Source: Porticoccaceae bacterium
Lineage (GTDB): Bacteria > Pseudomonadota > Gammaproteobacteria > Pseudomonadales > Porticoccaceae
DNA: 64,000 nucleotides
Assembly (NCBI GenBank): GCA_024644585.1
Contig: JAHEHM010000066.1
Span: 16,479 to 80,478, forward strand
Direction of reading: 5' to 3'
In this document: piece after piece, positions 14,683 through 26,761 of the stretch
How positions within the stretch are numbered: position 1 is the stretch's first letter
Layout: the number at the start of each line of letters is the position of its first letter
The notes under the pieces: model-generated
The model's database searches: none
Told to the model about the DNA's origin: nothing
What the model saw: only the letters and a program-made list of their open reading frames with translations
Position numbers and translations under genes: made by a program

Positions 14683-14710
14683 TGGTGCAAAAATGGTAAC
14701 AGTGCCAGAG
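14683..14710 (+). repeat. 28-bp island-border repeat, copy A (TGGTGCAAAAATGGTAACAGTGCCAGAG)
   Basis: Matches copy B at 25 of 28 positions, and copy C with a 1-nt gap. It sits 28 nt after the dusA relic stop. Confidence 0.8.
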
Positions 14711-14743
14711 GGGGTCTAGAATAGCCCGTTTCAACTTTTTTTC

Positions 14744-15538
14744 TCACCCAACACCACAAATTTTCTCTTTTAAAGAAACTAAAACTGCATCTCTATTAAA
14801 ATCGCCCACATGAATACTGAGCGCGGTATTGGGTTTCTGTTCAAGTAAATACTTAACCAAAAGTCTGTTTTCGGCATAATACAACTGAGGCACCCTAGCA
14901 TTAGTCCTATTATCTCTAGCACAGATATATCTAACCGTATCATCCTTTGAAATTGTCGATTGCCCACGAACATTTTCTGCATAGCCCTCGGCTATCCAAT
15001 CAGGTGTAAAAAGTATTTTGATCAACCCAACGGTATTACGCTGATCGGTATGTGTAGCCTCGTGCGCGATTATTCCTGCGATCTCGCTAGTCTCACCATT
15101 ATTTAACATTGAAAAGAAGACTGAAGGTCTAAAATAGATATTGAATATATTCACCGCAATAGGAGGGTTATCCGTAAAGTTTATTGCCAAAAAAGAAAAG
15201 AAACGATCAGATGGGGGTAAATATATTTTATACCTTGTTTCTGAATTATTAAGCGGGCTTTGTCTTAAAAGTTCACTTGAATGCTCAAGGATTTGACTGA
15301 TCTGTTGAGGAGAAACATCAGACAAGGCATAGAAATCAAACCGATCATTAGAATAAATTTTTTGAAAATATAATGGGGAAAACAACACAATTAACGCGTA
15401 GCTGTATACGATAAACCCGATAGCTAATTCAAATAGCGTATAAATCGATTTTTTCCAAGTTGAAAAAGGCTGATTGCCTTTTCTAAGAGAACGGAATGGA
15501 TGCAGCCAAGATAATATTCGGAATAAGATTGAACGCAT
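14744..15538 (-). CDS. Membrane-anchored hypothetical protein with an HExxH zinc-metallopeptidase motif
   Basis: One N-terminal TM helix (LFELAIGFIVYSYALIVLF) and the motif IIAHEATHTDQ. I recognise no further family. Confidence 0.5.
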   Translation of the reverse strand: MRSILFRILSWLHPFRSLRKGNQPFSTWKKSIYTLFELAIGFIVYSYALIVLFSPLYFQKIYSNDRFDFYALSDVSPQQISQILEHSSELLRQSPLNNSETRYKIYLPPSDRFFSFLAINFTDNPPIAVNIFNIYFRPSVFFSMLNNGETSEIAGIIAHEATHTDQRNTVGLIKILFTPDWIAEGYAENVRGQSTISKDDTVRYICARDNRTNARVPQLYYAENRLLVKYLLEQKPNTALSIHVGDFNRDAVLVSLKEKICGVG

Positions 15539-15811
15539 TTAAAACGCCTAAAAAAATTTAATGTGCTATTGGTGCATAGATTTTTAAAAATAAAGCGTAA
15601 AAAACATAGTTTAACGCCAAATCCTGCCACGGTAACTCAACAAAAGTCAGCCTGATCGAATCAACACTAACAGATACCATTGTTATTAATTTCTAATTAA
15701 TAATAGACCATGCATGATGATTGGTGTGCCATAAGCCCGATGATCCCGCCAATTCTTCGCAACTAGTCTACAATTTCAGTATTGCAAGCAATACAGATTC
15801 AAGGAAGAATA

Positions 15812-16702
15812 ATGGCGAAGCCATTTACCATTAAGCTCTTTATGCCAAGCGGCAATGCCAATGAGCTAAAGCTTATCGAAAAGATGAACTGGACAGGGCT
15901 GGGGATGGAAATATCCCGCACGGCATGGCCGACACACCGCAAGCGTGAAGAACTGCAACAGGCGGGTATCTATATACTAGTGGGCTACGATGATGATGAA
16001 GATTTGCCCTGCCTATATATTGGGCAAGCCGATGGCATTAAAAATCGATTAGAAAGTCATTTTAAAAATAAATCATTTTGGGACAGAGCATTAATCTTTG
16101 TCTCCAGTAACCAAGGCCTAAACAGAGCGCATATCACATGGCTAGAATGGGCACTCATACAAAAAGCCCAAGCCATCGGGCGTTGCAAGCTAGATAACAC
16201 ATCAATACCCAATGAACCGCGACTAACCGAATCAGAGCGAGCCGATACACAGGAATTTTTACACGAAATACTCAGTATTTTGCCATTGGTAGAAGTGACC
16301 GCCTTCGAAAAAGCGCAAAAGATAGAACAGCAAAATACACCACAGCAAAAATCGTCCAATGAAAATACCATTGTCGTACCCGCCAATAAAGGGGGTTTTG
16401 AAAGGGTATTTTTGGGGGAACATTGCTGGTATGCCGTACGGATCGCCGGTGGCAGGCTTGAGCAAATTAAATATATTGCTGCCTATCAAACCGCACCTAT
16501 TTCGGCTATTACCCATATCGCCGAAGTGGCATCTATCGAACCCTATGGGGATGGGAAAAAATACAAACTATACTTCAACGCGCCCGCTAGACCTATTGGG
16601 CCGTTAAAGCTAGGAAATACTCATAAAAACTCGATGCAAGGTCCTAGGTATACCAATAATATTGTTCTGAATAATGCACGGGATATGGGGGATGTTTTTT
16701 AG
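15812..16702 (+). CDS. GIY-YIG nuclease family protein with a DUF4357-like C-terminal region
   Basis: GIYILVG...LYIGQADGIKNRLESH...NRAHITWLEWALI is the GIY-YIG core. The start is moved from the TTG at 15782 to the ATG at 15812, which has an AAGGAAG RBS 5 nt upstream. Confidence 0.7.
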   Translation: MAKPFTIKLFMPSGNANELKLIEKMNWTGLGMEISRTAWPTHRKREELQQAGIYILVGYDDDEDLPCLYIGQADGIKNRLESHFKNKSFWDRALIFVSSNQGLNRAHITWLEWALIQKAQAIGRCKLDNTSIPNEPRLTESERADTQEFLHEILSILPLVEVTAFEKAQKIEQQNTPQQKSSNENTIVVPANKGGFERVFLGEHCWYAVRIAGGRLEQIKYIAAYQTAPISAITHIAEVASIEPYGDGKKYKLYFNAPARPIGPLKLGNTHKNSMQGPRYTNNIVLNNARDMGDVF

Positions 16703-16726
16703 TTAGCAGTTGGAATGATCCTTGGT

Positions 16727-16754
16727 TGGTGCAAAAATGGTTACAGTACGAGAG
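16727..16754 (+). repeat. 28-bp island repeat, copy B (TGGTGCAAAAATGGTTACAGTACGAGAG)
   Basis: Lies between the convergent genes ending at 16702 (+) and 16773 (-). It marks an internal module junction. Confidence 0.8.
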
Positions 16755-16772
16755 ATCGGTTTTTCACTACAA

Positions 16773-17459
16773 TTAAACAAACTTTTCAAGAAAATGAAGA
16801 CCTTGCCCTTCGACACCCCCAGTAAGAATTATCTTAGGAATAGCATTTTCTGAAGCCCAAACGATTGCTAACTGACCAAACTGGCTAGCAAGGCCTATGG
16901 CTTCGCCACAGGTTAAGCCCAAAACACACAAACTAGGTTCTGCTGGCCACTGACTGTCGCGGTCTTTACCTTCGCCATTAAAATACAGGGTTTCTCTGGT
17001 ATCTAAATAACTTATTAGCTGTTGTTGATATTCTTGGTTCGCTTTTTCCGTTACTAACTGACCATCTGGGTTATAAGCAGTAATAAATGTGCAAGTTGCC
17101 AACTTATTAAATCTGTATAACTCCAATAGCGTTTCTGATTTTTTACCTATATTAAGCACAAACTGCTGGCCGCGATCATTCACAATATAATCTGTTTGCA
17201 AGTAATCATTTAGTAACTGTTTAGAAAAACCAGCTAAATCATTCTGAATTGAATTTATAATTAATTGTTTTTCATGGCTAAGACGCATACCAATATTCCT
17301 ACCTAAACCATGTCGAAAGGCATCGAGCTGATCGTCATTCATCAACTCTATATCCTCAACCGAATAACCATATCGATTGAGGACGTCCTTATAAGCAGCT
17401 TTTATTCTTGGGTGTCCGCGCAGGTCTTCGAAAGTGGGTATGTAACAGAAGTCATCCAT
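16773..17459 (-). CDS. Hypothetical protein with a DUF3293-like C-terminal domain; last gene of the five-gene operon
   Basis: The C-terminal half has FITAYNPDG...N...W..EPS...FGQLAIVW, the pattern I associate with DUF3293. The N-terminal ~100 aa are unassigned. Confidence 0.45.
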   Translation of the reverse strand: MDDFCYIPTFEDLRGHPRIKAAYKDVLNRYGYSVEDIELMNDDQLDAFRHGLGRNIGMRLSHEKQLIINSIQNDLAGFSKQLLNDYLQTDYIVNDRGQQFVLNIGKKSETLLELYRFNKLATCTFITAYNPDGQLVTEKANQEYQQQLISYLDTRETLYFNGEGKDRDSQWPAEPSLCVLGLTCGEAIGLASQFGQLAIVWASENAIPKIILTGGVEGQGLHFLEKFV

Positions 17460-17474
17460 AACAATAACTAAAAC

Positions 17475-18446
17475 TTAATAATTCAAACTCTTATCAAGGG
17501 CGCACAATTCCTTAAATTGCTGTTCAGTTTCAATAATTAAACTTAATCCATCACGCCATGCACTAATTTTTATTTCAGTCGAAAATTTGCCCTGTACATA
17601 ATCAAAATCTTGCGCATCACCGCCTAGTAAATAGACATTAACGTACTTATTTCTGAAGAAAAAAGTGATATTGTCAAATTTATCAAAGTTACGTTTAACA
17701 TGAAGAAAACGCTTCCTTGATGGATCACCAGCCTTAATTTTTTGGCACATTGCTATCGCTTTGCCTGCAAAATCATATTCACAACCTGCAATTACATCAT
17801 CCCAGCTAACGTCTACATTGGTGTTTATTTTTTTACGGCTAGATTTTCTTGATTCGTAGGCATCAGAAAGTTCTCGCAAAGGATATCGTTGGTCCACGGT
17901 TAAAAAGCTTTCGTCACCATGACGATGAATATCTAGCGCATAGGCATAAATACTTACAGAAAAACTTGTCAGCCAATCGGCAGTGACTATTACCTCTGGA
18001 TCAAAGCTTTCAGCTATTAAAATTATTTTAATATCAGTATTTAAATCATTAGATTTTACGATACCTAAAAGCTCTTCATAATCATCAAGCTTGTGTTTTT
18101 CTATTTGCTCAATAACTTTTTCTTTGTTCCATTTAGAAACCATCGCCGCATATGAAACAGCTTGTAAAAGTTGTAGTTTATTCTTATCGCGCTTGAGCTC
18201 GATAACTACCAGGGACGAGTCATCGGAATCGTAGGCCAATAAATCTAAACTATTTTGCGTAGAGCTATCTGGCGTGATTTCTTCACCAATTAAAAAGGCC
18301 GAGGGCAACCCCAGTTCATTCTTAAAAAGCTCCCATGAAGAAATAATAGATTTCTGCAAGTTATAACGCTCAAGAATATTGTTCTCTTTGAGAGTGCTTT
18401 TTGCCACTGGTTCAAATATGGAATTAGACTTATTAAATTTTAACAA
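17475..18446 (-). CDS. PD-(D/E)xK nuclease, NucS/DUF91-like N-terminal domain with an unknown C-terminal domain
   Basis: ERYNLQKSI...LGL...IGEE...LDLLAYDSDDSSLVVIELKRDK...LLQAVSYAAM matches the NucS-type D...(D/E)xK core and its surrounding pattern. Confidence 0.6.
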   Translation of the reverse strand: MLKFNKSNSIFEPVAKSTLKENNILERYNLQKSIISSWELFKNELGLPSAFLIGEEITPDSSTQNSLDLLAYDSDDSSLVVIELKRDKNKLQLLQAVSYAAMVSKWNKEKVIEQIEKHKLDDYEELLGIVKSNDLNTDIKIILIAESFDPEVIVTADWLTSFSVSIYAYALDIHRHGDESFLTVDQRYPLRELSDAYESRKSSRKKINTNVDVSWDDVIAGCEYDFAGKAIAMCQKIKAGDPSRKRFLHVKRNFDKFDNITFFFRNKYVNVYLLGGDAQDFDYVQGKFSTEIKISAWRDGLSLIIETEQQFKELCALDKSLNY

Positions 18447-18466
18447 ACCAACCTAACCTCAATTGT

Positions 18467-19657
18467 TTAATTATTAATTTTTTCCAATAATCCAGTTTTA
18501 ATATTAAACCCATAATTTAGAAGAGTTCCATTCCTTAGCTTATCAACGGCTTCTTGAACAGTTTCTACTGGAACACAAAACCATTCTTTTGGATGATAAG
18601 TTTTACCAAATCTATCAGGAATCTCTATTTCCAATCTGGCAGATGCAAATACTTTGTGCAAAAGAGTTTCTAGCTTATGCCGATTTATGTTGTATAACTC
18701 AAAGCTTGCAACCAGATCCGCCTTGGCAAATAAAAAGGTTGGATCATTCTCAGCCCCAGACAAACGTATTGATGGGTCTTTGCTTGTAACTCCAATCTTG
18801 TGGACGTTTTTGGAGTTATCCCGAATCAAAGGGTGGCTTGATTGGCTTCGACAAACATAAATTACTCCACTCGCAATATCATCCTCATGAGGCTGATCAT
18901 CAAACAATGGTCCCATACTAATATCTGTGATTCGTCTGCCACCTTCGTCTTCCCATAATCTCTTTTGAAGTGATCGCATCAACTGATTACTTTCAACACC
19001 ATTATCAAAAATAATACGCAACCGATATTCCTTTCTACCATCAGTCCCTATAAACATTTCACCGATATCAGCCACATAGACCTTTTGCCCGCCAAGAATA
19101 AAAAGATTTTCTTTCTCTATCGTTCCATCCTTTACAAATGGGATTATCTTTCTTATACCACTTTCTATATCAGCTTGAATTTTTTCAAAAAGAGGCTTAA
19201 AAATATGAAAATCTTTGCAAGGTGTTCTGGTGCCAACTTCGTCTGCTGGCTTAATTTCTGAACGTGGCTTGACATGTTTAAGTGAAGTAAGATCATTATC
19301 AGTTTTAGTATTGAAACCAAGCTCTCCCAACAGTGCCTCATCATCTAAATCTTCTTCACTAATTTTTGAAATAAAACTCTCATTAAGAAGATCTTGATAA
19401 TCACTGTCTTTGAGTAACTCAACACAATCAGCTTGTTTACGTATTTGCTCCAGACGCGTGGCATATAAACGCTCAAATATATCTTTTTCATGGTCGAATG
19501 AAGGCACTCTATTTTGCTCGTCTACAAACTTCTGTATCTCTTCAAAACCAGCAATTACACGCTCTTCTTTTGCAGATAAGGCAGGTTTTTTCTTAACCTC
19601 ATATTCAATACCCAGCTCAGCAATAAGCTTGTCATCTTCTTCCGTAAATTTAGCCAT
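18467..19657 (-). CDS. T5orf172 / MUG113 (GIY-YIG-like) domain protein
   Basis: The C-terminal domain reads GVIYVCRS...VHKIGVTSKDPSIRL...LETLLHKVFASARLEI...PKEWFCVP. The N-terminal ~250 aa are unassigned. The start overlaps the helicase stop by 8 nt. Confidence 0.65.
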   Translation of the reverse strand: MAKFTEEDDKLIAELGIEYEVKKKPALSAKEERVIAGFEEIQKFVDEQNRVPSFDHEKDIFERLYATRLEQIRKQADCVELLKDSDYQDLLNESFISKISEEDLDDEALLGELGFNTKTDNDLTSLKHVKPRSEIKPADEVGTRTPCKDFHIFKPLFEKIQADIESGIRKIIPFVKDGTIEKENLFILGGQKVYVADIGEMFIGTDGRKEYRLRIIFDNGVESNQLMRSLQKRLWEDEGGRRITDISMGPLFDDQPHEDDIASGVIYVCRSQSSHPLIRDNSKNVHKIGVTSKDPSIRLSGAENDPTFLFAKADLVASFELYNINRHKLETLLHKVFASARLEIEIPDRFGKTYHPKEWFCVPVETVQEAVDKLRNGTLLNYGFNIKTGLLEKINN

Positions 19658-21734
19658 TTTGTTTCGCCTCAGCTACCATTTGCGCAAAGGCATTCATACC
19701 CTCGGCAATCTTCTTTTCCCATGGATCATTAGAGGTTACTTCCGGCTTTCTACCACGCTCTTTCAAAAATTGTCTTGCCCTTAAAGCATAATCTCTAGCC
19801 TCCTCATGGGTGAACTTTTGCTTCTTGCCAGCAATAATATTTCCGAACTGCCTAAGGCTTTCTTCACTCATAGACTTTGACAGGATGGCATAAGCTTCTC
19901 CAAATGGATTAATTCGATCAATAAAGTCCACATCTAAGCTTGTTACATCCATAACAAATTGCCTAACTCCATCTACAAATGCTGTATTTGACGAAGGCTC
20001 GCCATCACCAACATCAATAGATTCATTTTGACCTTGTTCATTTATTGCCTTTTTAACCTGTTGGGTCATATTTACAGCTGCCACAGCATGCTGACGAATT
20101 GCTTCCTGATCCTCATCGGGCAGATTAGGATACTTAGTGGCAACAATTTTTCCCATAGCCACTTGGGTTATTTCCTCTGGAACTACTTCGGTATCAAATA
20201 GGCCGCGTTCAACTGTTCTAGTATCCTGCGTAAACGCTGCAACCAAGTCATTAAGATCATCTTTAACTATTCTTTGAGCCTCTTCGCTTTTTGGCTCTGC
20301 CAACCCTGTAATCTCAATTTGAATTTGCCCTGTATCTTTGTTTACACCCACATTAGTTTTATCTGGATTATAACCGCCATCGCCATAATCAAACCCATCT
20401 ACAGGACCGCTTGTTGCTGTCTTAGGCGTAAAATCAAATCTTGGCGCTAACACCTGCTCCATAAGCAAACTTGCTGCAATCGCTTTTAGAGTGTCATTAA
20501 CGGCATCTGTAACTGCATCTTTAGCGGCATCGGGTTCAGCGATAAGATTAGTAAATCGCGTGCGCTCTTTACCCGGTGCATCACGAGTTGTGCGGCCAAT
20601 TATTTGCACTATTTCTGTCAGACTTGCGCGGTAGCCAACAGTCAGTGCATGTTCACACCAAATCCAGTCAAACCCTTCCTTAGCCATTCCGAGTGCAATA
20701 ATGATATCCACATAATCTCGATCACTCTCCATTAAAGGAGATCTAAGACCCACTTGAACTTTTGCACGTTTACTTCCATCATCTTCTACTAGGTCCGCTA
20801 CCTTGATAATTTTTTTATCCGATCGCCTTTCAATTAGGTGAAAACCTGTTTCCTCATCAACACCCATCCAAGTACCAAGCTCTTCGAGGATATCTTCTGT
20901 TTCTGTTAACTTTCCTCTTTTAGTGCTTTCCCGAGAGTTTACATTAGGAATATGAATGATCGTTTTCTCGTGAGGATCGAGAACCTTAAGAATATCGTCA
21001 ACATAGGGACCATTGTAAAAGTAATACCCAATATCTAACTCTTTTAAATACTCATATCCATTTAACTGCTCATAATAGGTGTAGGTTACGGTTTCAAATT
21101 TAGCTTCATCATCAGGGGTCATTACCGCATCAGAATCACCACGAAAATATGATCCTGTCATAGCTACAATATGAACTTTATCCCTTGCTAAAAATTCTTC
21201 TAACTGATTGCCCAAAACGTTGTCTGGATTAGCACTTAGATGATGGAATTCATCAATTGCAATTAATCGATTATCAAATACCTCAATACCAAATTTTTCC
21301 ACAGCAAATCTAAAAGTCGCATGGGTACAAACTAGATTGGTGTCATCACTGTCAAGAAAGGCTTTGACTGAATTAACCTTCCCACCGTCCTCACCCGGTG
21401 AATTACAGAGGTTCCATTTGGCTTTAACCTGCCAATCTGACCAAAAACCATATTCACTAAGTGGTGTATTATCAAAGCTTTTACCAATAGATTTTTCAGG
21501 GACCACAATAATCGCTTGCTGGATACTCTGATTAACAGTTTTATCTAATGCAAGAAACATCAAGGCTCGGCTTTTTCCAGATGCAGGTGGTGATTTAATT
21601 AACAAATATTGCTCACCGCGTTTCTCATAAGCACGCTCCTGCATCTCGCGCATACCCAACTCATTAGACTTCTTTGATTTTCCAGTTGAGTCATACTTAA
21701 CAGAGACTGTTGGTATTTCAATTTCCTTATTCAC
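19650..21734 (-). CDS. SF2 DExH-box helicase (ResIII-like) with no recognisable nuclease domain
   Basis: Motif I SPPASGKSR, motif II AIDEFHH, motif III MTGS, motif VI QIIGRTTRD. 4-nt overlap with the upstream methyltransferase gene. Confidence 0.8.
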   Translation of the reverse strand: MNKEIEIPTVSVKYDSTGKSKKSNELGMREMQERAYEKRGEQYLLIKSPPASGKSRALMFLALDKTVNQSIQQAIIVVPEKSIGKSFDNTPLSEYGFWSDWQVKAKWNLCNSPGEDGGKVNSVKAFLDSDDTNLVCTHATFRFAVEKFGIEVFDNRLIAIDEFHHLSANPDNVLGNQLEEFLARDKVHIVAMTGSYFRGDSDAVMTPDDEAKFETVTYTYYEQLNGYEYLKELDIGYYFYNGPYVDDILKVLDPHEKTIIHIPNVNSRESTKRGKLTETEDILEELGTWMGVDEETGFHLIERRSDKKIIKVADLVEDDGSKRAKVQVGLRSPLMESDRDYVDIIIALGMAKEGFDWIWCEHALTVGYRASLTEIVQIIGRTTRDAPGKERTRFTNLIAEPDAAKDAVTDAVNDTLKAIAASLLMEQVLAPRFDFTPKTATSGPVDGFDYGDGGYNPDKTNVGVNKDTGQIQIEITGLAEPKSEEAQRIVKDDLNDLVAAFTQDTRTVERGLFDTEVVPEEITQVAMGKIVATKYPNLPDEDQEAIRQHAVAAVNMTQQVKKAINEQGQNESIDVGDGEPSSNTAFVDGVRQFVMDVTSLDVDFIDRINPFGEAYAILSKSMSEESLRQFGNIIAGKKQKFTHEEARDYALRARQFLKERGRKPEVTSNDPWEKKIAEGMNAFAQMVAEAKQNG

Positions 21735-24511
21735 GATGCGCTCTCCATATTATTACTGATAGTTGATGAAGTCATTTTAGTGTACAGCTCAAAGAGTTTT
21801 TCTAATCGCTCTGTATCATTATTAAAACGACGACCGATATAAATACGCTCTATGGTTTCGTCATTTTTTTCATGAGCCAACCTAAGATCCTCATGCATGG
21901 ACTTGTTATGATCATAAAGCTCTGCAATCGTTTCCGGGAAATGCTTTTCACGTGCTAGAAGAATATCTTCAGCACAGCGTGTTAAATCTAATTTATTTTT
22001 TTTGGTTAGTTTTGGAACGGGAAAAGTATTGTAGCAAGTAGATGAAGTATATCTGAGATCGTCTTTTAACTTTCCAGCTATAGCCCTAACCCACACCATG
22101 TGAATTCTTGAAGATATAATAGAAAAAGTATCTAACTCAGCATTTTGAATAATGCTTGCTGCGTTGCTTATTATAACTTTATCATCCATATAACCCGCAG
22201 TGATAAATGCTCTTTTTTCAGAGAACACAGTTGGAACAAGGATTTGTTTTCCTTTTTGCTTATTTATCCATGCAAATTTATGAGGCCTACCAACAGCAGT
22301 TTTTGCCCTAGTTCCTGCATTAATTCTAAAATCACGAACAGAATCTATTCTATTTTTTATTTCCAAGCACTTCAGAGCACTATTTAAGTCACCATCGTCA
22401 ATCCAGATACACCACCTTAAAAACCCCTTAATAAATTCATTAGAACCATAGTATGGTTTTACAAAACCAGAGTAAGTTCCATTTTGTTGCCTTGAAATAT
22501 TACTTGCTGATGACCTGTCTAAAATAAGGTTTCCCCCATCTAATGCTCCACTCCCATCTGTTATTTTGGCACTTAAAGATAATGGGAATTTAGCTTCGGA
22601 AACTACTATGTTTTTTCCACTCAACAAGTAGGCATTTATATTATTAACCTCTCGAACACTGCATTTGCCCTCTTGATTTAACTCAAAGATTTTTTTTGAT
22701 TTACTATGATTACTTGTTACACCGATCACCACTACAGAAACACCAGCATTGGAACTTGCCAAGTTAGACCACTTAAATGACGTGTGAGCAAAAAATATTC
22801 TTTGTTCTCTCTTAAAAATGAAGGGCCATAACAAGAATGCTTGAACACCCTGACAAATGGAATTGGTCGTTACAAATGCGTAGTCTGCGTGACTATATGT
22901 ACAGTATTCACTCGCTTTAAATAGCCAGCCAGTCACATAGTCCAATGGCTTCCATTTTTTTATTTCTTTGGATAATATTTCACCTAATTCTTGCGTTTGC
23001 TCTTTTGTTCTCCAACTGCTTCCCTTGTAAGGTGGATTTCCACAGATGTAGGTCTCTCCACCCTCATTCTCGAAATCTATTTGAGCCTGATGTTGTGGCT
23101 TATGGAATAAATCATCGGATATATGCTCCACAATTTTTTCAGTCGGTGGACATACACTTAACCAATCAATTCTTAGAGCGTTACCATGAACTATCCAGTT
23201 TTTGGAATCTAAAGGCAGAAAATCTGCTAGTGCATCTTTCTGCCCGCGATACAATTCATCACACTGATATTCAGCAATAATTAGTGCCAAACGTGCTATC
23301 TCAGTAGCAAATTCTCTTAACTCAATCCCTCTAAAATTACTAAGCGGGATTTCTGATTTAAGATGCGTTTCATGCCTTCTTTTATTAATTTCAGATTCAA
23401 TTTGACGCATCTCTTTATAGGCAATAACCAAGAAATTGCCTGAACCACAGGCGGGGTCGAACACCCGAATTTTTGAAATTCTTTTTCTGAGGTTAAGAAG
23501 TTTACGGTGGTTATCGCCCGCTTCTTGGAGGCTTTCTCTTAGATCATCGAGAAATAACGGATTAAGCACCTTAAGAATATTGGGGACACTGGTGTAGTGC
23601 ATACCGATTGAACCCCGCTCTTCATCATCAGCAACCGCTTGGATCATAGAGCCAAATATATCTGGGTTAATCTCCTTCCAGTTTAAATTACCTGCATGGA
23701 TCAAATAAGACCGTGCAATTCGACTAAACTTGGGAACATCTCGATTACCTGCAAATAAGCCACCATTTACATAAGGGAAGTCTCTGGTCCAATTGGGAAG
23801 GTCTTCCATATCTCTATCTTCACGCTTAACATCCATTGCATGAAATATTTTAGAAATAACAAAATCAGCATTCTCAGAGCGACTATCACTCATCTGCTCT
23901 ATAGCGTGTGTAAACATATCTTCTTTTGGGAAAATACCTGTGTCTTCAGCAAAGTAGCAAAAGATTAAACGTGACATAAACTGATTAAGGTCATGCCTGC
24001 GCTCTGCCGTATCCCAGTCTTTATTTTCTTTTAGCAGCTCTACATAAAGCCTATTTAGACGCCCTGTTGCCTGAATATCAACAGCATTATTGCGGATTTC
24101 TTTGGTGGTAGTAATGCCAGCTAACGTAAGAAAGAAGCCAAAGTGGTTAGCAAAGTCACTGTATGCACAGGCCACAGTCTCGCCTGAATTTAAATCCTCA
24201 GCTACAAATTCAACACCATCAGTGGCAAGAATAATCTTCACCTTGCCTTTTATGGTTGCGGGGCTTTGTTTTAGCTCGATTAGAGTGTTATTTGCATCAC
24301 CTTCAGCACAAACAGCAATATGAATATTATCACGCTGAAGGACGCCGCCACTAATATCTGAACTGTTAGAAGAATTTTTTGCACTTCGAAGTTTTTTTAT
24401 TGTAGTTTCTTTATTTCCAAGGGCTTTCAGAAATGCGAATGGAAACTCAGTCACATCAAAATCTTGCATTGCTAGATGTGATACCGCTTCTTCAATTTCT
24501 ACAGCATTCAA
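21731..24511 (-). CDS. MmeI-family (type IIL/IIG-like) N6-adenine DNA methyltransferase with an N-terminal PD-ExK-like region and a C-terminal TRD
   Basis: 926 aa. RLIFCYFAEDTGIF spacer-domain signature, SIGMHYTS, motif I VFDPACGSGNFLV, motif IV GNPPYKG, and N-terminal D..(x)..IELK. TTG start with an AGGAAA RBS. Confidence 0.8.
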   Translation of the reverse strand: MNAVEIEEAVSHLAMQDFDVTEFPFAFLKALGNKETTIKKLRSAKNSSNSSDISGGVLQRDNIHIAVCAEGDANNTLIELKQSPATIKGKVKIILATDGVEFVAEDLNSGETVACAYSDFANHFGFFLTLAGITTTKEIRNNAVDIQATGRLNRLYVELLKENKDWDTAERRHDLNQFMSRLIFCYFAEDTGIFPKEDMFTHAIEQMSDSRSENADFVISKIFHAMDVKREDRDMEDLPNWTRDFPYVNGGLFAGNRDVPKFSRIARSYLIHAGNLNWKEINPDIFGSMIQAVADDEERGSIGMHYTSVPNILKVLNPLFLDDLRESLQEAGDNHRKLLNLRKRISKIRVFDPACGSGNFLVIAYKEMRQIESEINKRRHETHLKSEIPLSNFRGIELREFATEIARLALIIAEYQCDELYRGQKDALADFLPLDSKNWIVHGNALRIDWLSVCPPTEKIVEHISDDLFHKPQHQAQIDFENEGGETYICGNPPYKGSSWRTKEQTQELGEILSKEIKKWKPLDYVTGWLFKASEYCTYSHADYAFVTTNSICQGVQAFLLWPFIFKREQRIFFAHTSFKWSNLASSNAGVSVVVIGVTSNHSKSKKIFELNQEGKCSVREVNNINAYLLSGKNIVVSEAKFPLSLSAKITDGSGALDGGNLILDRSSASNISRQQNGTYSGFVKPYYGSNEFIKGFLRWCIWIDDGDLNSALKCLEIKNRIDSVRDFRINAGTRAKTAVGRPHKFAWINKQKGKQILVPTVFSEKRAFITAGYMDDKVIISNAASIIQNAELDTFSIISSRIHMVWVRAIAGKLKDDLRYTSSTCYNTFPVPKLTKKNKLDLTRCAEDILLAREKHFPETIAELYDHNKSMHEDLRLAHEKNDETIERIYIGRRFNNDTERLEKLFELYTKMTSSTISNNMESAS

Positions 24512-24532
24512 CTTGAGATTTTCCTGTTTTGG

Positions 24533-24549
24533 AGAATTTTATAAATTCT
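24533..24549. promoter_or_regulatory. Inverted repeat AGAATTT-TAT-AAATTCT overlapping a TATAAA -10-like box just upstream of the methyltransferase start
   Basis: 7-bp arms with a 3-nt spacer, 22-38 nt upstream of the TTG at 24511, in the 58-nt gap after the Sel1 gene. Confidence 0.3.
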
Positions 24550-24569
24550 AGAAATTATTGACTAAAACT

Positions 24570-25436
24570 TTACAATTTTCGTCTTTTCTTATTACGCCTG
24601 TAGATAAAGTAGGGCAACCAAATAAGAATAACAAGCTTGGGAATTGCCCCGCCAATATTAAAAGCAACACTTCTACTAGGATCCTGAATCCAGAACAATA
24701 ACCAACTATCTAGCCATTCATGATCAAATAAAAGATATTTACTTACTATCTCTCGAGCATTCAAATCACCTTGTTTTGAAGCCTCACGAAGCCAATCAAT
24801 TGCTTTATGCTTGTTTTTATCAACACCCCAGCCATATAGGAACGCGAGTCCAAGATTTAAATCTGCCTCGACTAGCCCATGCCCGGCAGATTCCTTAAAA
24901 AGCTGGAATGCCTTTGCATCATCCCTTTCAACGCCAGTTCCATTTAAAAAGAGTTGACCTAAATTAACCTTGGCTTCAATCAAACCTTGTTCAGAAGCTT
25001 TTTTAAACCATTTAGCGGCCTTAACCTCACTTTTATCTATACGAGAGCCATACAGGTACTCTACACCAAGATTGTACTGAGCTCTATCAAGCCCCTGATT
25101 CGCAGCAGCTTTAAGCCAATTTATTCCATCAGAGTCGTTTCTTTCAACACCGATGCCTTGCATCAGCATAATAGCTACACTGTATTTCCCAATTACGTTA
25201 CCCTTTTCGGCAGCTTTCAAATACCAATAAAAAGCCTCTTTTTCGCTCTTGGATACATCATCTCCATAAAAATATTTTCGACCCAAAGCCGCTTGAGCTT
25301 CAACATCACCGCCATAGGCTTTACGTTGTAGGTCATCTATTTGCATTGAAAAACAATTATTTACGAAAAACCCCATAGACAAAATTATGTAAGTTATGAA
25401 CTTTTTCAAGTAAAGGTGAGAGAATAAATCATTCAT
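24570..25436 (-). CDS. Sel1-repeat (SLR/TPR-like) protein with an N-terminal signal/anchor and a C-terminal TM helix
   Basis: At least five repeats of the A..W..KAA.QG...A...LG type. Hydrophobic N-terminus. C-terminal IPKLVILIWLPYFIY followed by RRNKKRRKL. Confidence 0.75.
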   Translation of the reverse strand: MNDLFSHLYLKKFITYIILSMGFFVNNCFSMQIDDLQRKAYGGDVEAQAALGRKYFYGDDVSKSEKEAFYWYLKAAEKGNVIGKYSVAIMLMQGIGVERNDSDGINWLKAAANQGLDRAQYNLGVEYLYGSRIDKSEVKAAKWFKKASEQGLIEAKVNLGQLFLNGTGVERDDAKAFQLFKESAGHGLVEADLNLGLAFLYGWGVDKNKHKAIDWLREASKQGDLNAREIVSKYLLFDHEWLDSWLLFWIQDPSRSVAFNIGGAIPKLVILIWLPYFIYRRNKKRRKL

Positions 25437-25673
25437 AATAAAATTGTTTTCATGTTTAAATACCAGCGCAAAGATTACATGTAAAATTTTTAAATCTCTA
25501 TATAACTATGAATAAAAATTCTAAGTAATAGTTTTAAATAGTATTTAATTAAAACATGGAAATAATATTCATGGCCTTGAAATATTTTTTAAACAACCCA
25601 CAATTTTAATCTATCTAATATAAAATAGCCTAAAAACTAAATTCCCACCTACGTCCTGCCAAAAAAAATGGTA

Positions 25674-25695
25674 ACAAAAATGGTACAGTGCCAAA
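25674..25695 (+). repeat. Island-border repeat, copy C (ACAAAAATGGT-ACAGTGCCAAAA), preceded by a partial extra AAAAATGGTAACA
   Basis: Same orientation as copies A and B, about 105 nt upstream of the dusA ATG. Confidence 0.7.
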
Positions 25696-25706
25696 ATGAG
25701 TTAAAA

Positions 25707-25765
25707 TTATAAAAGATTATAAATCGTTATAAATCAATGATTTAAAACGTTATAAAAGATTATAA
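25707..25765 (+). repeat. Two copies of the 16-bp direct repeat TTATAAAAGATTATAA (43-bp spacing) plus additional (C/G)(G/A)TTATAAA units; candidate recombinase arm-type sites
   Basis: Exact copies at 25707-25722 and 25750-25765. CGTTATAAATCAATGATTTAAAACG lies between them, and a related AAATCAATGGATTAAAA occurs at 14661-14677 near the left junction. Confidence 0.5.
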
Positions 25766-25798
25766 GAAATTATGTAAAGTTAGGCTAAGTTATTGAAA

Positions 25799-26761
25799 AT
25801 GAATAGAAAATTCTGTATCGCCCCGATGATGGACTGGACTGACCGCCACTGTCGCTATTTCTTGCGCCTGATTAGTCAGCATACGGTGCTGTACACCGAG
25901 ATGGTGACTACCGGTGCGATTATCTATGGCGATGCCCATCGTCATTTGCAGATGCATGAAGCAGAGCAACCGGTGGCTTTACAACTGGGGGGCAGTAACC
26001 CCGCCGATCTGGCGAAGGCGTGCAAGATTGCTAGCGACTATCACTACAATGAAATTAATCTTAACTGCGGTTGCCCCAGCGATCGGGTGCAGAATGGTAT
26101 GTTTGGCGCGATTATGATGAAGCATGCGCAGACTACGGCAGACTGTGTGAAAGCGATGGTGGATGCGGTGGATGTGCCGGTGACGGTTAAGCATCGTATT
26201 GGCGTGGATGATTTTGATTCTTATGAGTTTTTGACGGACTTTGTGGGCACTGTGGCTGATACAGGGTGCGAGACTTTTATTGTGCATGCGCGCAAGGCAT
26301 GGCTTAAGGGCTTAAGCCCAAAACAAAATCGTGAAATTCCTGAGCTTGATTATGGGCGGGTGTATCAGTTGAAACAGGATTTCCCTGAGCTTGAGATTAT
26401 TATTAATGGCGGCATCACTGACTTGGAGCAATCTAAACAGCATTTGACGAAGATTGATGGGGTAATGATTGGTCGAGAGGCTTATACTAACCCGTATTTG
26501 CTAGCGGACGTTGATCAGCAAATCTACGGCAGTAAAAATTCTATGCAAAGTCGTAAAAAAGTTGCTGAAGAGTTCATCCAATATGTGGATAATGAACTCT
26601 CTCAGAATATTAAACTCCAATCTATGACGCGACATATTTTGGGACTTTTTCATGGCATGCCTGGCGCAAGACAGTTTAGACGACATATTAGTGAAAATGC
26701 CCACCAACCTAACGCCACTATTGATGTGTTAATAGAGGCTTTGGCTAAGACAACAGGATAG
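25799..26761 (+). CDS. dusA: tRNA-dihydrouridine(20/20a) synthase DusA (intact)
   Basis: [23 protein letters not shown] plus an FMN-binding TIM-barrel. The ATG at 25799 is preferred over the TTG at 25793. Confidence 0.9.

What the first reader, a model, noticed from the sequence alone, without database searches (positions are those of the whole stretch)
16773..24511. Five-gene operon: methyltransferase, helicase, T5orf172, NucS-like nuclease and DUF3293 protein. Candidate undescribed defence / restriction-like system
Five minus-strand genes are packed with 4-nt and 8-nt overlaps and 20- and 15-nt gaps, which suggests translational coupling. They are: (1) a 926-aa MmeI-family N6-adenine methyltransferase with TRD (DPACGSGNF, NPPY, RLIFCYFAEDTGIF); (2) a 694-aa SF2 DExH helicase with no nuclease domain; (3) a 396-aa protein with a C-terminal T5orf172/GIY-YIG-like domain; (4) a 323-aa protein with a NucS/DUF91-type PD-(D/E)xK core (DLLAYD...VVIELKRD); and (5) a 228-aa protein whose C-terminal half looks like DUF3293, a domain of unknown function. 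The operon sits in an AT-rich island inserted in dusA, a typical context for defence cargo. The gene set lacks the hallmarks of BREX (no PglZ or BrxC), DISARM (no DrmA, DrmB or PLD), type I (no HsdS or HsdR) and type III (the Mod class and a fused Res nuclease are absent). My inference is an epigenetically discriminating system assembled in trans: the methyltransferase/TRD marks self DNA, the helicase translocates, and up to three distinct nuclease folds provide cleavage.
Basis: partly seen in the sequence, partly recalled or inferred. Interest (0 to 1): 0.85.

Follow-up and report, generated by a model that had tools for sequence, protein, structure and literature searches.

The report
Known YeeABC restriction-like system plus neighbours
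The five tightly packed genes are real, but they are three separate modules: the already described YeeA/YeeB/YeeC (DnmA-type) methyltransferase-helicase-nuclease defence cluster, a hitch-hiking single-gene nuclease of the PDC-S11/'Madara' kind, and a flanking DUF3293 gene that belongs to the chromosome rather than to the system.

Summary
All five minus-strand ORFs, their overlaps and gaps, and their domain calls are confirmed. The reading as a new five-gene system is not.

Genes 1-3 (18467-24511) are the YeeA(DnmA)/YeeB/YeeC cluster, described in 2009:
- YeeA is an MmeI-like m6A methyltransferase/TRD whose N-terminus lacks the MmeI nuclease segment.
- YeeB is a very strongly conserved SF2 helicase.
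- YeeC is a T5orf172/GIY-YIG protein.

In 80 genome loci found through the helicase, gene 3 follows it in 78 and gene 1 is present in 72. Gene 4 is present in 1 and gene 5 in 0. Close relatives (88-94% helicase identity) carry only the three genes.

Gene 4 is a PD-(D/E)xK nuclease of the PADLOC PDC-S11 family, recently named Madara, a modification-dependent single-gene defence. About 90% of its informative loci lack YeeABC. Where the two are linked, gene 4 sits upstream, inside or downstream of the triad.

Gene 5 (DUF3293) belongs to the conserved flank. Sister contigs keep dusA, gene 5 and the PDC-S14 gene but carry a type I RM cassette in place of Sel1+YeeABC+gene 4.

Side lead: the DUF3293 domain model most resembles phage SAM lyases, and the invariant Glu and Gln align. 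The evidence is marginal.

Verdict: a new member of a known kind; low to moderate interest.

The parts
21731..24511 (-). g1: YeeA/DnmA-type MmeI-family gamma-class N6-adenine methyltransferase with a fused TRD. The N-terminal domain is the YeeA type.
   Evidence: All five Pfam MmeI domains are present, and PADLOC REase_MTase_IIG scores 905 bits. PDB MmeI 5hr4 matches at E 1e-126, but only from residue 93. A 25-sequence family profile also aligns only from residue 85, so the MmeI D70/E80/K82 segment is not matched. In 66 homologues position 79 is Ala in 42 and Glu in 4. The motifs DPACGSGNF and NPPY are intact. g1 was detected in 72 of 80 helicase loci.
19650..21734 (-). g2: YeeB, an SF2 DExH helicase and putative translocase, with a conserved C-terminal half of about 300 aa of unknown function.
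   Evidence: ResIII/DEAD hits. More than 8000 homologues were found, one of them named 'DNA helicase, restriction/modification system component YeeB'. Identity is 66-70% across many phyla. All helicase motifs are conserved. It occurs on 266 plasmids, 120 of them conjugative.
18467..19657 (-). g3: YeeC, with a conserved N-terminal helical region and a C-terminal T5orf172 (GIY-YIG superfamily) domain. It is the putative nuclease.
   Evidence: Pfam T5orf172 and MUG113. It follows the helicase in 78 of 80 loci. The motifs G-x-IYV, HK-x-GVT, R, DRFG and P-x-EWF are conserved and present here. PGAP names homologues 'GIY-YIG nuclease family protein'.
17475..18446 (-). g4: a separate module. It is a PDC-S11 ('Madara')-like single-gene PD-(D/E)xK nuclease with a linker and a C-terminal putative DNA- or modification-reading domain.
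   Evidence: Five PADLOC PDC-S11 models hit at E 1e-26 to 5e-17. D68, E83 and K85 are invariant. The AF2 model has pLDDT 84. The nuclease half matches SfsA, YaeQ, BsmI, BspD6I and RecE, and the C-terminal half matches the T4 MotA C-terminal domain. It is absent from the nearest YeeABC relatives. About 90% of informative g4 loci lack YeeABC.
16773..17459 (-). g5: not part of the system. It is a flanking gene with an N-terminal extension of about 80 aa and a DUF3293 domain at about residues 82-215. The domain model resembles phage SAM lyases.
   Evidence: Pfam DUF3293. Homologues at 93% identity sit after a type I RM + YgjP cassette in sister contigs, and nucleotide homology begins 6 nt before the ATG. 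DUF3293 is absent from 82 YeeB loci. Foldseek hits are, and hhalign results.
17466..25660 (.). Variable cassette (Sel1 gene + YeeABC + g4). Sister contigs carry HsdM-HsdS-HsdR-YgjP here instead.
   Evidence: blastn of L083-L086 against the window: homology covers 25661-26223 and 15778-17465 only.
18506..24534 (-). The mobile YeeABC module, as delimited by nucleotide homology to near relatives.
   Evidence: L081 (78-79% nt) and L082 (84-89% nt) match the window only between 24534 and 18506/18535.
24570..25436 (-). Sel1-repeat protein with a hydrophobic N-terminus and a hydrophobic C-terminal stretch. It lies inside the variable cassette but is not linked to YeeABC elsewhere.
   Evidence: Pfam Sel1 x5. 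It is absent from all 80 helicase loci and from L081 and L082.
15782..16702 (+). PDC-S14 candidate single-gene defence protein with an N-terminal GIY-YIG-like motif. It is convergent with g5 and is part of the conserved flank.
   Evidence: PADLOC PDC-S14 at E 1e-59, and weak GIY-YIG hits. It is 93% conserved next to g5 in L083-L086 and L096.
24536..24564 (-). Sigma-70-like promoter match just upstream of g1 (weak evidence).
   Evidence: Consensus scan, 9 of 12 matches. Such matches are fewer than in shuffled sequence, so this is only suggestive.

Best explanation
The locus is a mosaic of three modules that happen to be packed on one strand.

(1) Genes 1-3 are a YeeA(DnmA)/YeeB/YeeC system.
- YeeA recognises a short asymmetric site through its TRD and deposits m6A on it. 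This is shown for the B. subtilis homologue and inferred here from intact motifs I and IV.
- Its N-terminal domain has replaced the MmeI PD-ExK segment. It presumably docks or activates the partner proteins (inferred).
- On unmethylated incoming DNA, the YeeB SF2 ATPase translocates (inferred).
- The YeeC T5orf172/GIY-YIG domain cuts or otherwise disables the DNA (inferred).
- In effect this would be a split, type I / type ISP-like restriction-modification machine.
- Phage defence by yeeAB is shown in Vibrio crassostreae. It was not seen in B. subtilis.

(2) Gene 4 is an autonomous PDC-S11/Madara-like nuclease. The E. coli family member restricts hypermodified phage DNA. Here it most likely rides along as a complementary type IV-like backstop for phages that escape methylation-based discrimination (inferred).

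(3) Gene 5 (DUF3293) and the convergent PDC-S14 gene are the resident flank of a chromosomal slot next to dusA. In this Porticoccaceae population that slot holds interchangeable RM cassettes. All five genes may well be co-transcribed, but co-transcription does not make them one system.
For: Literature:
- Morgan 2009 defined the YeeA set: no PD-ExK, 'invariably' flanked by a DEAD helicase and a GIY-YIG protein, with no endonuclease activity in YeeA alone.
- DnmA methylates GACGAG.
- Synteny is conserved.
- Inactivating yeeAB sensitises V. crassostreae to a phage clade.

Found here:
- Triad synteny holds in 72-78 of 80 loci across many phyla.
- Near relatives have exactly three genes, and nucleotide homology is confined to 18506-24534.
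- The YeeA N-terminus cannot be aligned to the MmeI catalytic segment, and the ExK acid is not conserved in the family.
- Helicase and T5orf172 motifs are intact.
- g4 hits PDC-S11 models and has a PD-(D/E)xK fold with an invariant D...ExK.
- Madara has the same layout of nuclease, linker and C-terminal domain, and is modification-dependent.
- g4 is found alone in most loci and in three different positions relative to YeeABC.
- g5 is shared with type I RM alleles of the same slot. L084 and L096 come from the same metagenome.
- DUF3293 is absent from the other YeeB and g4 loci.
- Short DUF3293 proteins lie in non-defence contexts.
Against: - No biochemical mechanism for YeeABC has been published. 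Translocation and cleavage are inferred.
- In B. subtilis the cluster gave no restriction or phage phenotype.
- The 15-20-nt spacing means g4 and g5 are probably on the same transcript as YeeABC, so functional cross-talk cannot be excluded.
- g4 homologues of about 56% identity sit directly upstream of yeeA in 5 of the 6 informative loci of one Porticoccaceae-like clade. That is more linkage than pure chance would give.
- This clade's YeeA carries E70...(E/D)79-L-K81 where the family consensus is A-L-K. Residual nuclease activity in g1 itself is therefore not ruled out.
- g4's assignment to PDC-S11 rests on HMM hits without curated cut-offs. Its C-terminal domain may differ from that of Madara.
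Confidence: 0.8

Rival explanations
1. One reading: all five proteins form one obligate, epigenetically discriminating system in which GIY-YIG, PD-(D/E)xK and DUF3293 components cooperate in cleavage.
For: The genes are tightly packed on one strand with 4- and 8-nt overlaps and 15- and 20-nt gaps, and no terminator-like site falls in the gaps. A sister contig, L096, has the same gene order.
Against: g4 is in 1 of 80 and g5 in 0 of 80 YeeB loci. HMM searches confirm this. The nearest relatives have three genes only. g5 is retained when the cassette is a type I RM. L096 has an extra 134-aa ORF and an 880-nt gap between yeeC and g4. g5 shows no nuclease fold.
Confidence: 0.04
2. In this marine clade g4 is a genuine fourth subunit or effector of YeeABC (a four-gene system), not an independent gene.
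For: g4-family genes abut YeeABC in the window, in L096, in L090, L091, L099, L100 and L143 (upstream of yeeA), and in L057 (between yeeA and yeeB).
Against: The position varies (upstream, inside, downstream). About 90% of informative g4 loci have no YeeABC. 79 of 80 YeeB loci have no g4. The yeeA-yeeB junction also hosts RhuM, Schlafen-like and GmrSD genes in other loci, which is typical of hitch-hiking cargo. The PDC-S11 gene of E. coli defends on its own when cloned.
Confidence: 0.1
3. The YeeABC genes here are a non-defensive relic. YeeA acts as an orphan epigenetic methyltransferase, as proposed for B. subtilis DnmA.
For: B. subtilis shows no restriction of plasmid DNA or of three phages, and shows m6A-dependent promoter effects.
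Against: All catalytic motifs of the three proteins are intact here and under strong conservation. The module is mobile: it is on plasmids, in integrase islands and next to Zorya. It alternates with a type I RM at the same slot. yeeAB defends in Vibrio. The B. subtilis YeeB and YeeC are reported to lack C-terminal stretches.
Confidence: 0.08
4. g1 is an autonomous MmeI-type (type IIL/IIG) restriction-modification enzyme, as PADLOC labels it. The helicase and T5orf172 genes are unrelated neighbours.
For: There is a full-length PADLOC REase_MTase_IIG match and a Pfam MmeI_N hit. The clade-specific E70...(E/D)79-L-K81 could mimic D-X9-ExK.
Against: The first ~85 aa do not align to the MmeI catalytic segment, even with a family profile. 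The acid at position 79 is Ala in 42 of 66 family members. Two YeeA-type proteins showed no endonuclease activity. Linkage to YeeB and YeeC is near-invariant.
Confidence: 0.03

Closest known systems
YeeA(DnmA)/YeeB/YeeC cluster (Bacillus subtilis; yeeAB of Vibrio crassostreae 7F1_18)
   Same: The three-gene order and architecture are the same. YeeA is an MmeI-like methyltransferase/TRD without the PD-ExK segment, followed by a DEAD/DExH helicase and then a T5orf172/GIY-YIG protein. The cluster is found in low-GC, mobile or defence contexts. The window helicase is 66-70% identical to homologues annotated as YeeB.
   Different: Here the cluster is in a marine Porticoccaceae chromosome next to dusA. 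It is followed directly by a PDC-S11-like gene. This clade's YeeA has an acidic residue restoring an ExK-like triplet. The recognition motif is unknown. A direct sequence comparison with the B. subtilis proteins could not be run.
MmeI family type IIL/IIG restriction-modification enzymes
   Same: The helical spacer, gamma-class methyltransferase, TRD and C-terminal domains are homologous (E 1e-126 to PDB 5hr4). By analogy, modification is likely on a single strand of an asymmetric site.
   Different: The N-terminal catalytic segment of MmeI (D70/E80/K82) has no alignable counterpart. Cleavage is presumably delegated to separate proteins.
Type ISP (LlaGI/LlaBIII) and type I restriction-modification systems (comparison from my own knowledge of these families)
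   Same: They combine a methyltransferase/TRD with an SF2 ATPase translocase and a nuclease. Morgan et al. explicitly called the YeeABC set type I-like. The operon also tolerates embedded cargo genes, as seen in 40 of 70 loci.
   Different: The subunits are split differently. There is no HsdS or HsdR and no Mrr or PD-(D/E)xK nuclease on the motor. The nuclease is a T5orf172/GIY-YIG protein. Translocation and cleavage are undemonstrated.
PDC-S11 / 'Madara' (E. coli ECOR34; bioRxiv 10.64898/2026.09.05.749240)
   Same: g4 matches five PDC-S11 HMMs. It has an N-terminal NucS-like PD-(D/E)xK domain with an invariant D...ExK, a disordered linker and a C-terminal beta-rich domain. It sits beside a methylation-based system, as Madara sits beside BREX.
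   Different: The C-terminal domain of g4 best resembles the T4 MotA C-terminal domain rather than an EVE fold. Modification dependence is untested. Similarity to the E. coli protein was assessed only through the PADLOC models.
Phage SAM lyases (T3 SAMase, Svi3-3) and CRISPR-associated SAM-AMP lyase. For g5 only.
   Same: The AF2 model of the DUF3293 domain gives SAM lyases as its top six PDB hits, and annotated SAM hydrolases among the BFVD hits. The invariant Glu and Gln of DUF3293 align with catalytic E68 and with Q94 of T3 SAMase.
   Different: Sequence-level support is marginal (hhalign probability 5-15%). The model is of moderate confidence. There is an extra 80-aa N-terminal extension. 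DUF3293 is a large, mostly stand-alone cellular family found in non-defence contexts. No activity is known.

Membership tests
YeeABC / DnmA-type cluster (Morgan 2009 'second set' of MmeI homologues) | An MmeI-like protein that is highly similar to MmeI except in the first ~100 aa, which lack the PD-ExK motif. | tested here: met
   Both phmmer and a 25-sequence profile align to MmeI only from residue 85-93 onward. The family consensus at the would-be ExK is A-L-K. Caveat: the window and its clade have E/D at position 79.
YeeABC / DnmA-type cluster (Morgan 2009 'second set' of MmeI homologues) | A DEAD/DExH helicase (YeeB) immediately downstream. | tested here: met
   g2 overlaps g1 by 4 nt. It has ResIII/DEAD hits. 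A homologue is named YeeB by its source. g1 was detected in 72 of 80 helicase loci.
YeeABC / DnmA-type cluster (Morgan 2009 'second set' of MmeI homologues) | A GIY-YIG/T5orf172 protein (YeeC) downstream of the helicase. | tested here: met
   g3 overlaps g2 by 8 nt and has a T5orf172 hit at E 2e-14. It follows the helicase in 78 of 80 loci.
YeeABC / DnmA-type cluster (Morgan 2009 'second set' of MmeI homologues) | m6A methylation of an asymmetric site, and restriction that depends on YeeB and YeeC. | not testable with these tools
   Only the motifs are visible (DPACGSGNF, NPPY). This needs a methylome and genetics.
Autonomous MmeI-type type IIL enzyme | An N-terminal PD-ExK catalytic segment (D70-X9-E80-X-K82 in MmeI; numbering from memory of the MmeI literature, not checked here). 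| tested here: not met
   There is no alignment to MmeI residues 1-103. The acid is not conserved in the family.
Type I RM | HsdS specificity and HsdR motor-nuclease subunits. | tested here: not met
   No HsdS or HsdR hits in Pfam, NCBIfam or PADLOC for any of the five proteins.
BREX | PglZ and BrxC alongside a PglX methyltransferase. | tested here: not met
   There are only weak PglX-like hits, to the methyltransferase motif of g1 (E 1e-7 to 1e-8, far below cut-offs). No PglZ or BrxC was found.
DISARM | DrmA, DrmB and DrmC (PLD) with DrmMI or DrmMII. | tested here: not met
   g1 has partial DrmMI-like hits over the TRD only. No DrmA, DrmB or DrmC was found.
PDC-S11 / Madara (g4) | An N-terminal NucS-like PD-(D/E)xK nuclease with a catalytic Asp, a linker and a C-terminal sensing domain, in a single gene. 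| tested here: met
   Five PDC-S11 HMMs hit at E 1e-26 to 5e-17. D68, E83 and K85 are invariant. The model shows a nuclease fold, a disordered 192-209 segment and a C-terminal domain. Most loci are stand-alone.
PDC-S11 / Madara (g4) | Restriction that depends on phage DNA hypermodification. | not testable with these tools
   This is known only for the ECOR34 protein.
SAM lyase / PII-like superfamily (g5 DUF3293 domain) | A ferredoxin-like PII fold with a catalytic Glu at the end of the T-loop and a conserved B-loop Gln. | tested here: inconclusive
   Foldseek against PDB gives SAM lyases as the top six hits (probability 0.97-0.99, TM 0.41-0.46, E 5e-3 to 9e-2). BFVD gives annotated SAM hydrolases. 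hhalign gives P 0.002-0.008, above all 30 shuffled controls, with E174~E68 and Q196~Q94 aligned. But hhalign probability is only 5-15%, the model pLDDT is 62 overall, and there is no phmmer or PHROGs hit.
dusA-integrating genomic island | A DusA-specific integrase, with insertion into the 5' end of dusA and a duplicated att site. | tested here: not met
   dusA is intact. No integrase appears among the ORFs of 150 aa or more between 11.5 and 26 kb. Homology with sister contigs ends about 130 nt upstream of dusA, with no repeat at the junctions.

The most novel reading that the evidence does not exclude
DUF3293 is a large, unrecognised cellular branch of the phage SAM-lyase (PII-like) superfamily. 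Gene 5 is permanently stationed at the 3' border of a slot that exchanges SAM-dependent restriction cassettes (YeeABC here, type I RM in sister strains). In this reading it works with whichever cassette is present, for example by lowering SAM or degrading a SAM-derived molecule to tune or back up restriction, or to ease acquisition of a new cassette.
Probability: 0.1. Interest if true: 0.7.

Novelty: new member of a known kind. Interest (0 to 1): 0.3.

Why it matters
The practical lesson is that tight packing on one strand does not define a system. Comparative context splits this 'operon' into a known triad, a hitch-hiker and a resident flank gene.

The YeeABC triad is still worth attention:
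- It is very widespread. There are more than 8000 helicase clusters at 90% identity, 266 plasmids carry it, and it occurs in many phyla.
- Its helicase is unusually conserved.
- Annotation tools reduce it to 'type IIG RM'.
- Its mechanism has never been shown biochemically, and the two genetic tests disagree (Vibrio yes, Bacillus no).

This intact marine copy alternates with a type I RM at one chromosomal slot within a single metagenome. That is a good natural example of cassette exchange and a candidate for mechanistic work.

The observations made along the way could each seed a focused follow-up:
- a cargo slot between yeeA and yeeB;
- recurrent pairing with type IV-like genes;
- a possible link between DUF3293 and SAM lyases.

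Tried and rejected
- PDB sequence searches for g2 and for the g5 profile found nothing useful.
- PHROGs found nothing for g3, g4 or g5. NCBIfam found nothing for g3-g5.
- hhalign of the shallow g5 alignment against the single T3 SAMase sequence found nothing.
- tblastn of the DUF3293 domain against 50,697 phage genomes gave no match.
- A Pfam scan of ten DUF3293 fusion proteins gave no informative partner, apart from one FGase fusion.
- The promoter and terminator scan was uninformative, with hits at or below shuffled expectation.
- Looking up the hpt neighbour to size the island returned only short contigs.
- No tRNA or Rfam feature lies near the locus.
- Junction sequences show no att-like repeats.
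- I considered that D61/E79/K81 in g1 form a live PD-ExK site. I rejected this as the main reading because D61 and E79 are not conserved in the family. I kept the clade-level E70/(E/D)79/K81 as a caveat.
- I considered that gene 5 is a universal RM accessory. I rejected this because DUF3293 is absent from all other YeeB and g4 loci, and its short relatives sit in unrelated contexts.

Full report
OBSERVATION. They are 21731-24511 (926 aa), 19650-21734 (694 aa), 18467-19657 (396 aa), 17475-18446 (323 aa) and 16773-17459 (228 aa). The spacings are 4- and 8-nt overlaps and 20- and 15-nt gaps. GC falls to 0.34-0.40 between about 12 and 26 kb, against about 0.45 elsewhere.

Domain calls hold. g1 carries all five Pfam MmeI domains. 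g2 hits ResIII/DEAD. g3 has a C-terminal T5orf172 domain. g4 hits five PADLOC PDC-S11 models (best E 1e-26) and YhcG_C weakly. g5 has DUF3293. None of the five proteins hits PglZ, BrxC, DrmA, DrmB, HsdS or HsdR. The contig comes from a marine Porticoccaceae MAG.

GENES 1-3 ARE THE YeeA/YeeB/YeeC CLUSTER. A search with the helicase returned more than 8000 clusters. One is annotated 'DNA helicase, restriction/modification system component YeeB'. The literature then settles the identity.
- Morgan et al. 2009 split MmeI homologues into two sets. One has the N-terminal PD-ExK motif. The other, typified by B. subtilis YeeA, lacks it, differs in the first ~100 residues, and is 'invariably' flanked by a DEAD helicase (YeeB) and a GIY-YIG protein (YeeC).
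- They proposed that the MmeI-like subunit gives specificity and protective modification, while the helicase and nuclease act as separate subunits, in a type I-like arrangement. YeeA alone showed no endonuclease activity.
- Nye et al. 2020 showed that YeeA (DnmA) makes m6A at GACGAG and does not restrict plasmid uptake.
- Fernandez et al. 2023 confirmed the synteny and found no phage phenotype in B. subtilis.
- Piel et al. 2021 found that inactivating yeeAB makes Vibrio crassostreae 7F1_18 sensitive to one phage clade.

I tested the defining features here.
- In 80 genome loci recovered with the helicase, helicase identity is 66-70%. The loci span Proteobacteria, Firmicutes, Cyanobacteria, Bacteroidota, Terriglobia, Nitrospirales and others. 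g3 follows the helicase in 78 of them, and g1 was detected in 72.
- MmeI (PDB 5hr4) aligns to g1 at E 1e-126, but only from residue 93. A 25-sequence family profile aligns only from residue 85. The MmeI segment that holds D70/E80/K82 (numbering from memory of the MmeI literature) therefore has no counterpart.
- In 66 YeeA-type sequences the would-be ExK acid is Ala in 42 and Glu in 4.
- The methyltransferase motifs (DPACGSGNF, NPPY), all helicase motifs and the T5orf172 signature residues are intact in the window and conserved in the family.
- The system occurs on 266 plasmids, 120 of them conjugative. PGAP names the three genes generically.
- PADLOC models give g1 only the label 'type IIG REase-MTase' and give g2 and g3 nothing.

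GENES 4 AND 5 ARE NOT PART OF IT. In the same 80 loci g4 has one relative and g5 has none. That one relative is in L057, where it lies between yeeA and yeeB. Family HMMs give the same answer.

The closest relatives of the window module have helicase identities of 88% (L081) and 94% (L082). Both carry exactly three genes, followed by gcvP or by a Zorya-like cluster. Their nucleotide homology to the window runs only from 24534 to 18506/18535.

g5 has almost no close relatives. Its 93%-identical copies lie in sister contigs L083-L086. These contigs share with the window the dusA 5' flank (25661-26223) and the block of g5 plus the convergent PDC-S14 gene (17465-15778). Between those two blocks they carry HsdM-HsdS-HsdR-YgjP instead of the Sel1 gene + YeeABC + g4. 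Homology resumes 6 nt before the g5 ATG.

L096 has the window's arrangement and L084 has the type I allele. Both come from the same metagenome. g5 is therefore resident flank next to an exchangeable cassette. Short DUF3293 proteins elsewhere sit in unrelated contexts.

dusA is intact. No integrase appears among the ORFs of 150 aa or more between 11.5 and 26 kb. No repeats were seen at the junctions.

WHAT GENE 4 IS. Its family has 334 members in the search, mostly marine. D68, E83 and K85 are invariant.

The AF2 model (pLDDT 84) has three parts:
- a PD-(D/E)xK half whose best matches are SfsA, YaeQ, BsmI, BspD6I, RecE and MGME1;
- a disordered linker at residues 192-209;
- a C-terminal domain that most resembles the T4 MotA C-terminal DNA-binding domain.

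A September 2026 preprint renames PDC-S11 'Madara'. It describes a single-gene, modification-dependent defence with an N-terminal NucS-like nuclease, a linker and a C-terminal sensing domain. It restricts T4(ghmC) but not T4(C), and complements the neighbouring BREX system.

Of 85 g4-family loci, 52 have at least 1.5 kb of flank. Only the sister L096 and a Porticoccaceae-like group (L090, L091, L099, L100 and the decayed L143) adjoin YeeABC. In that group g4 lies upstream of yeeA. Elsewhere g4 stands alone, among TIR, integrase or housekeeping genes.

L096 even has an extra 134-aa ORF between yeeC and g4. The pairing is therefore recurrent but facultative, and its position varies. That is the behaviour of a hitch-hiking type IV-like partner rather than of a subunit.

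MECHANISM. Shown elsewhere:
- site-specific m6A deposition by DnmA;
- no nuclease activity of YeeA alone;
- yeeAB-dependent phage resistance in Vibrio.

Shown here:
- membership of the YeeABC cluster;
- intact motifs in all three proteins;
- mobility of the module;
- independence of g4 and g5.

Inferred: YeeA senses unmethylated sites. Its special N-terminal domain couples to YeeB. YeeB translocates, and YeeC's T5orf172/GIY-YIG domain cleaves, much like a split type I or type ISP enzyme (the type ISP comparison is from my own knowledge). g4 would add cover against hypermodified phages.

Caveat: the Porticoccaceae clade of YeeA has E70...(E/D)79-L-K81 where the family consensus is A-L-K. A residual active site in g1 cannot be excluded.

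SIDE OBSERVATIONS.
(i) 40 of 70 YeeABC loci carry 0.4-7 kb of same-strand cargo between yeeA and yeeB. The cargo includes RhuM/PDC-S05 (8 loci), Schlafen AlbA_2 + HATPase_c_4 + wHTH (5), GmrSD (1), PDC-S11 (1) and several recurrent unknown families. This resembles the embedded genes of type I RM operons.

(ii) The DUF3293 domain of g5 may be related to SAM lyases.
- The model comes from a 5-sequence MSA. pLDDT is 62 overall and 70-87 in most of the domain.
- Phage SAM lyases are the top six PDB hits (probability 0.97-0.99, TM 0.41-0.46).
- Annotated SAM hydrolases appear among the BFVD hits, after a phage DUF3293 protein at TM 0.84.
- hhalign of a 101-sequence DUF3293 profile against T3-type SAMases gives P 0.002-0.008, which is above all 30 shuffled controls, but probability is only 5-15%.
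- It aligns invariant E174 with the catalytic E68 and invariant Q196 with Q94. It also aligns A128, N141 and S176 with invariant A17, N27 and T70.
- DUF3293 has 2711 clusters in the 50%-identity library.
This is a lead, not a result.

VERDICT. The locus is a new member of a known kind, set in an instructive mosaic context.

Noticed in passing
window 17466-25660; loci L083-L086, L096: One chromosomal slot between dusA and the DUF3293 gene holds alternative cassettes in closely related Porticoccaceae. The window and L096 carry Sel1+YeeABC+g4. L083-L086 carry HsdM-HsdS-HsdR-YgjP. L084 and L096 come from the same metagenome (JGI20154J14316). No repeats were seen at the junctions.
   Followed up: yes
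L002-L080 (between the yeeA and yeeB homologues): 40 of 70 YeeABC loci have 0.4-7 kb of same-strand genes inserted between yeeA and yeeB. These include RhuM/PDC-S05 (8 loci), Schlafen AlbA_2+HATPase_c_4+wHTH (5), GmrSD_N (1) and PDC-S11 (1). There are also recurrent families with no Pfam or PADLOC hit (about 277 aa x4, 260 aa x4, 365 aa x4, 137 aa x4, 448 aa x2). This looks like a cargo slot, as in type I RM operons.
   Followed up: partly
window 16773-17459 (g5, residues ~82-215): The AF2 model of the DUF3293 domain most resembles phage SAM lyases (PDB 6znb, 8bb1, 7ock; BFVD SAM hydrolases). DUF3293's invariant E174 and Q196 align with the catalytic E68 and with Q94 of T3 SAMase. Sequence-level support is marginal. 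DUF3293 is a large cellular family (2711 clusters) with no literature in the library searched.
   Followed up: partly
window 23732-24511 (g1 N-terminus); L081, L082, L090, L099, L100: The Porticoccaceae clade of YeeA conserves E70 and (E/D)79-L-K81, where the wider YeeA family has A-L-K. This might be a retained or regained ExK-like site in a domain otherwise regarded as nuclease-dead.
   Followed up: partly
window 17475-18446 (g4, residues ~215-323): The C-terminal domain of the PDC-S11-like nuclease best matches the T4 MotA C-terminal 'double-wing' DNA-binding domain (TM to target 0.50-0.54). The Madara preprint instead describes an EVE-like domain. The sensing domain of this subfamily may therefore differ.
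   Followed up: no
window 15782-16702 (+): A PADLOC PDC-S14 candidate single-gene defence protein (E 1e-59; weak N-terminal GIY-YIG; PHROG 12629) lies convergent with g5. It is conserved with g5 in all sister contigs.
   Followed up: partly
L082 7596-14876: In the closest relative of the window module (helicase 94% identical), YeeABC lies tail-to-tail with a Zorya-like cluster (a ZorA-like protein, an OmpA-like protein, an EH_Signature protein and an SNF2 helicase).
   Followed up: no
window 19650-21734 (g2) and L001-L080: The YeeB helicase is 66-70% identical between distant phyla along its whole length. This includes a C-terminal half of about 300 aa with no known domain. That is unusually strong conservation for a defence gene.
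   Followed up: no
window 11774-13741; L197-L200: The AT-rich LuxN-like histidine kinase next to hpt is 655 aa here and in L199, but 411 aa in other contigs that encode an identical hpt. There is a further small swap at window 14709-15777, where L083 and L085 carry a MamF_MmsF-family gene instead.
   Followed up: no
L096 754-1155: The sister contig with the same gene order has an extra 134-aa ORF, and about 880 nt, between yeeC and the g4 homologue. The window has only a 20-nt gap there.
   Followed up: no
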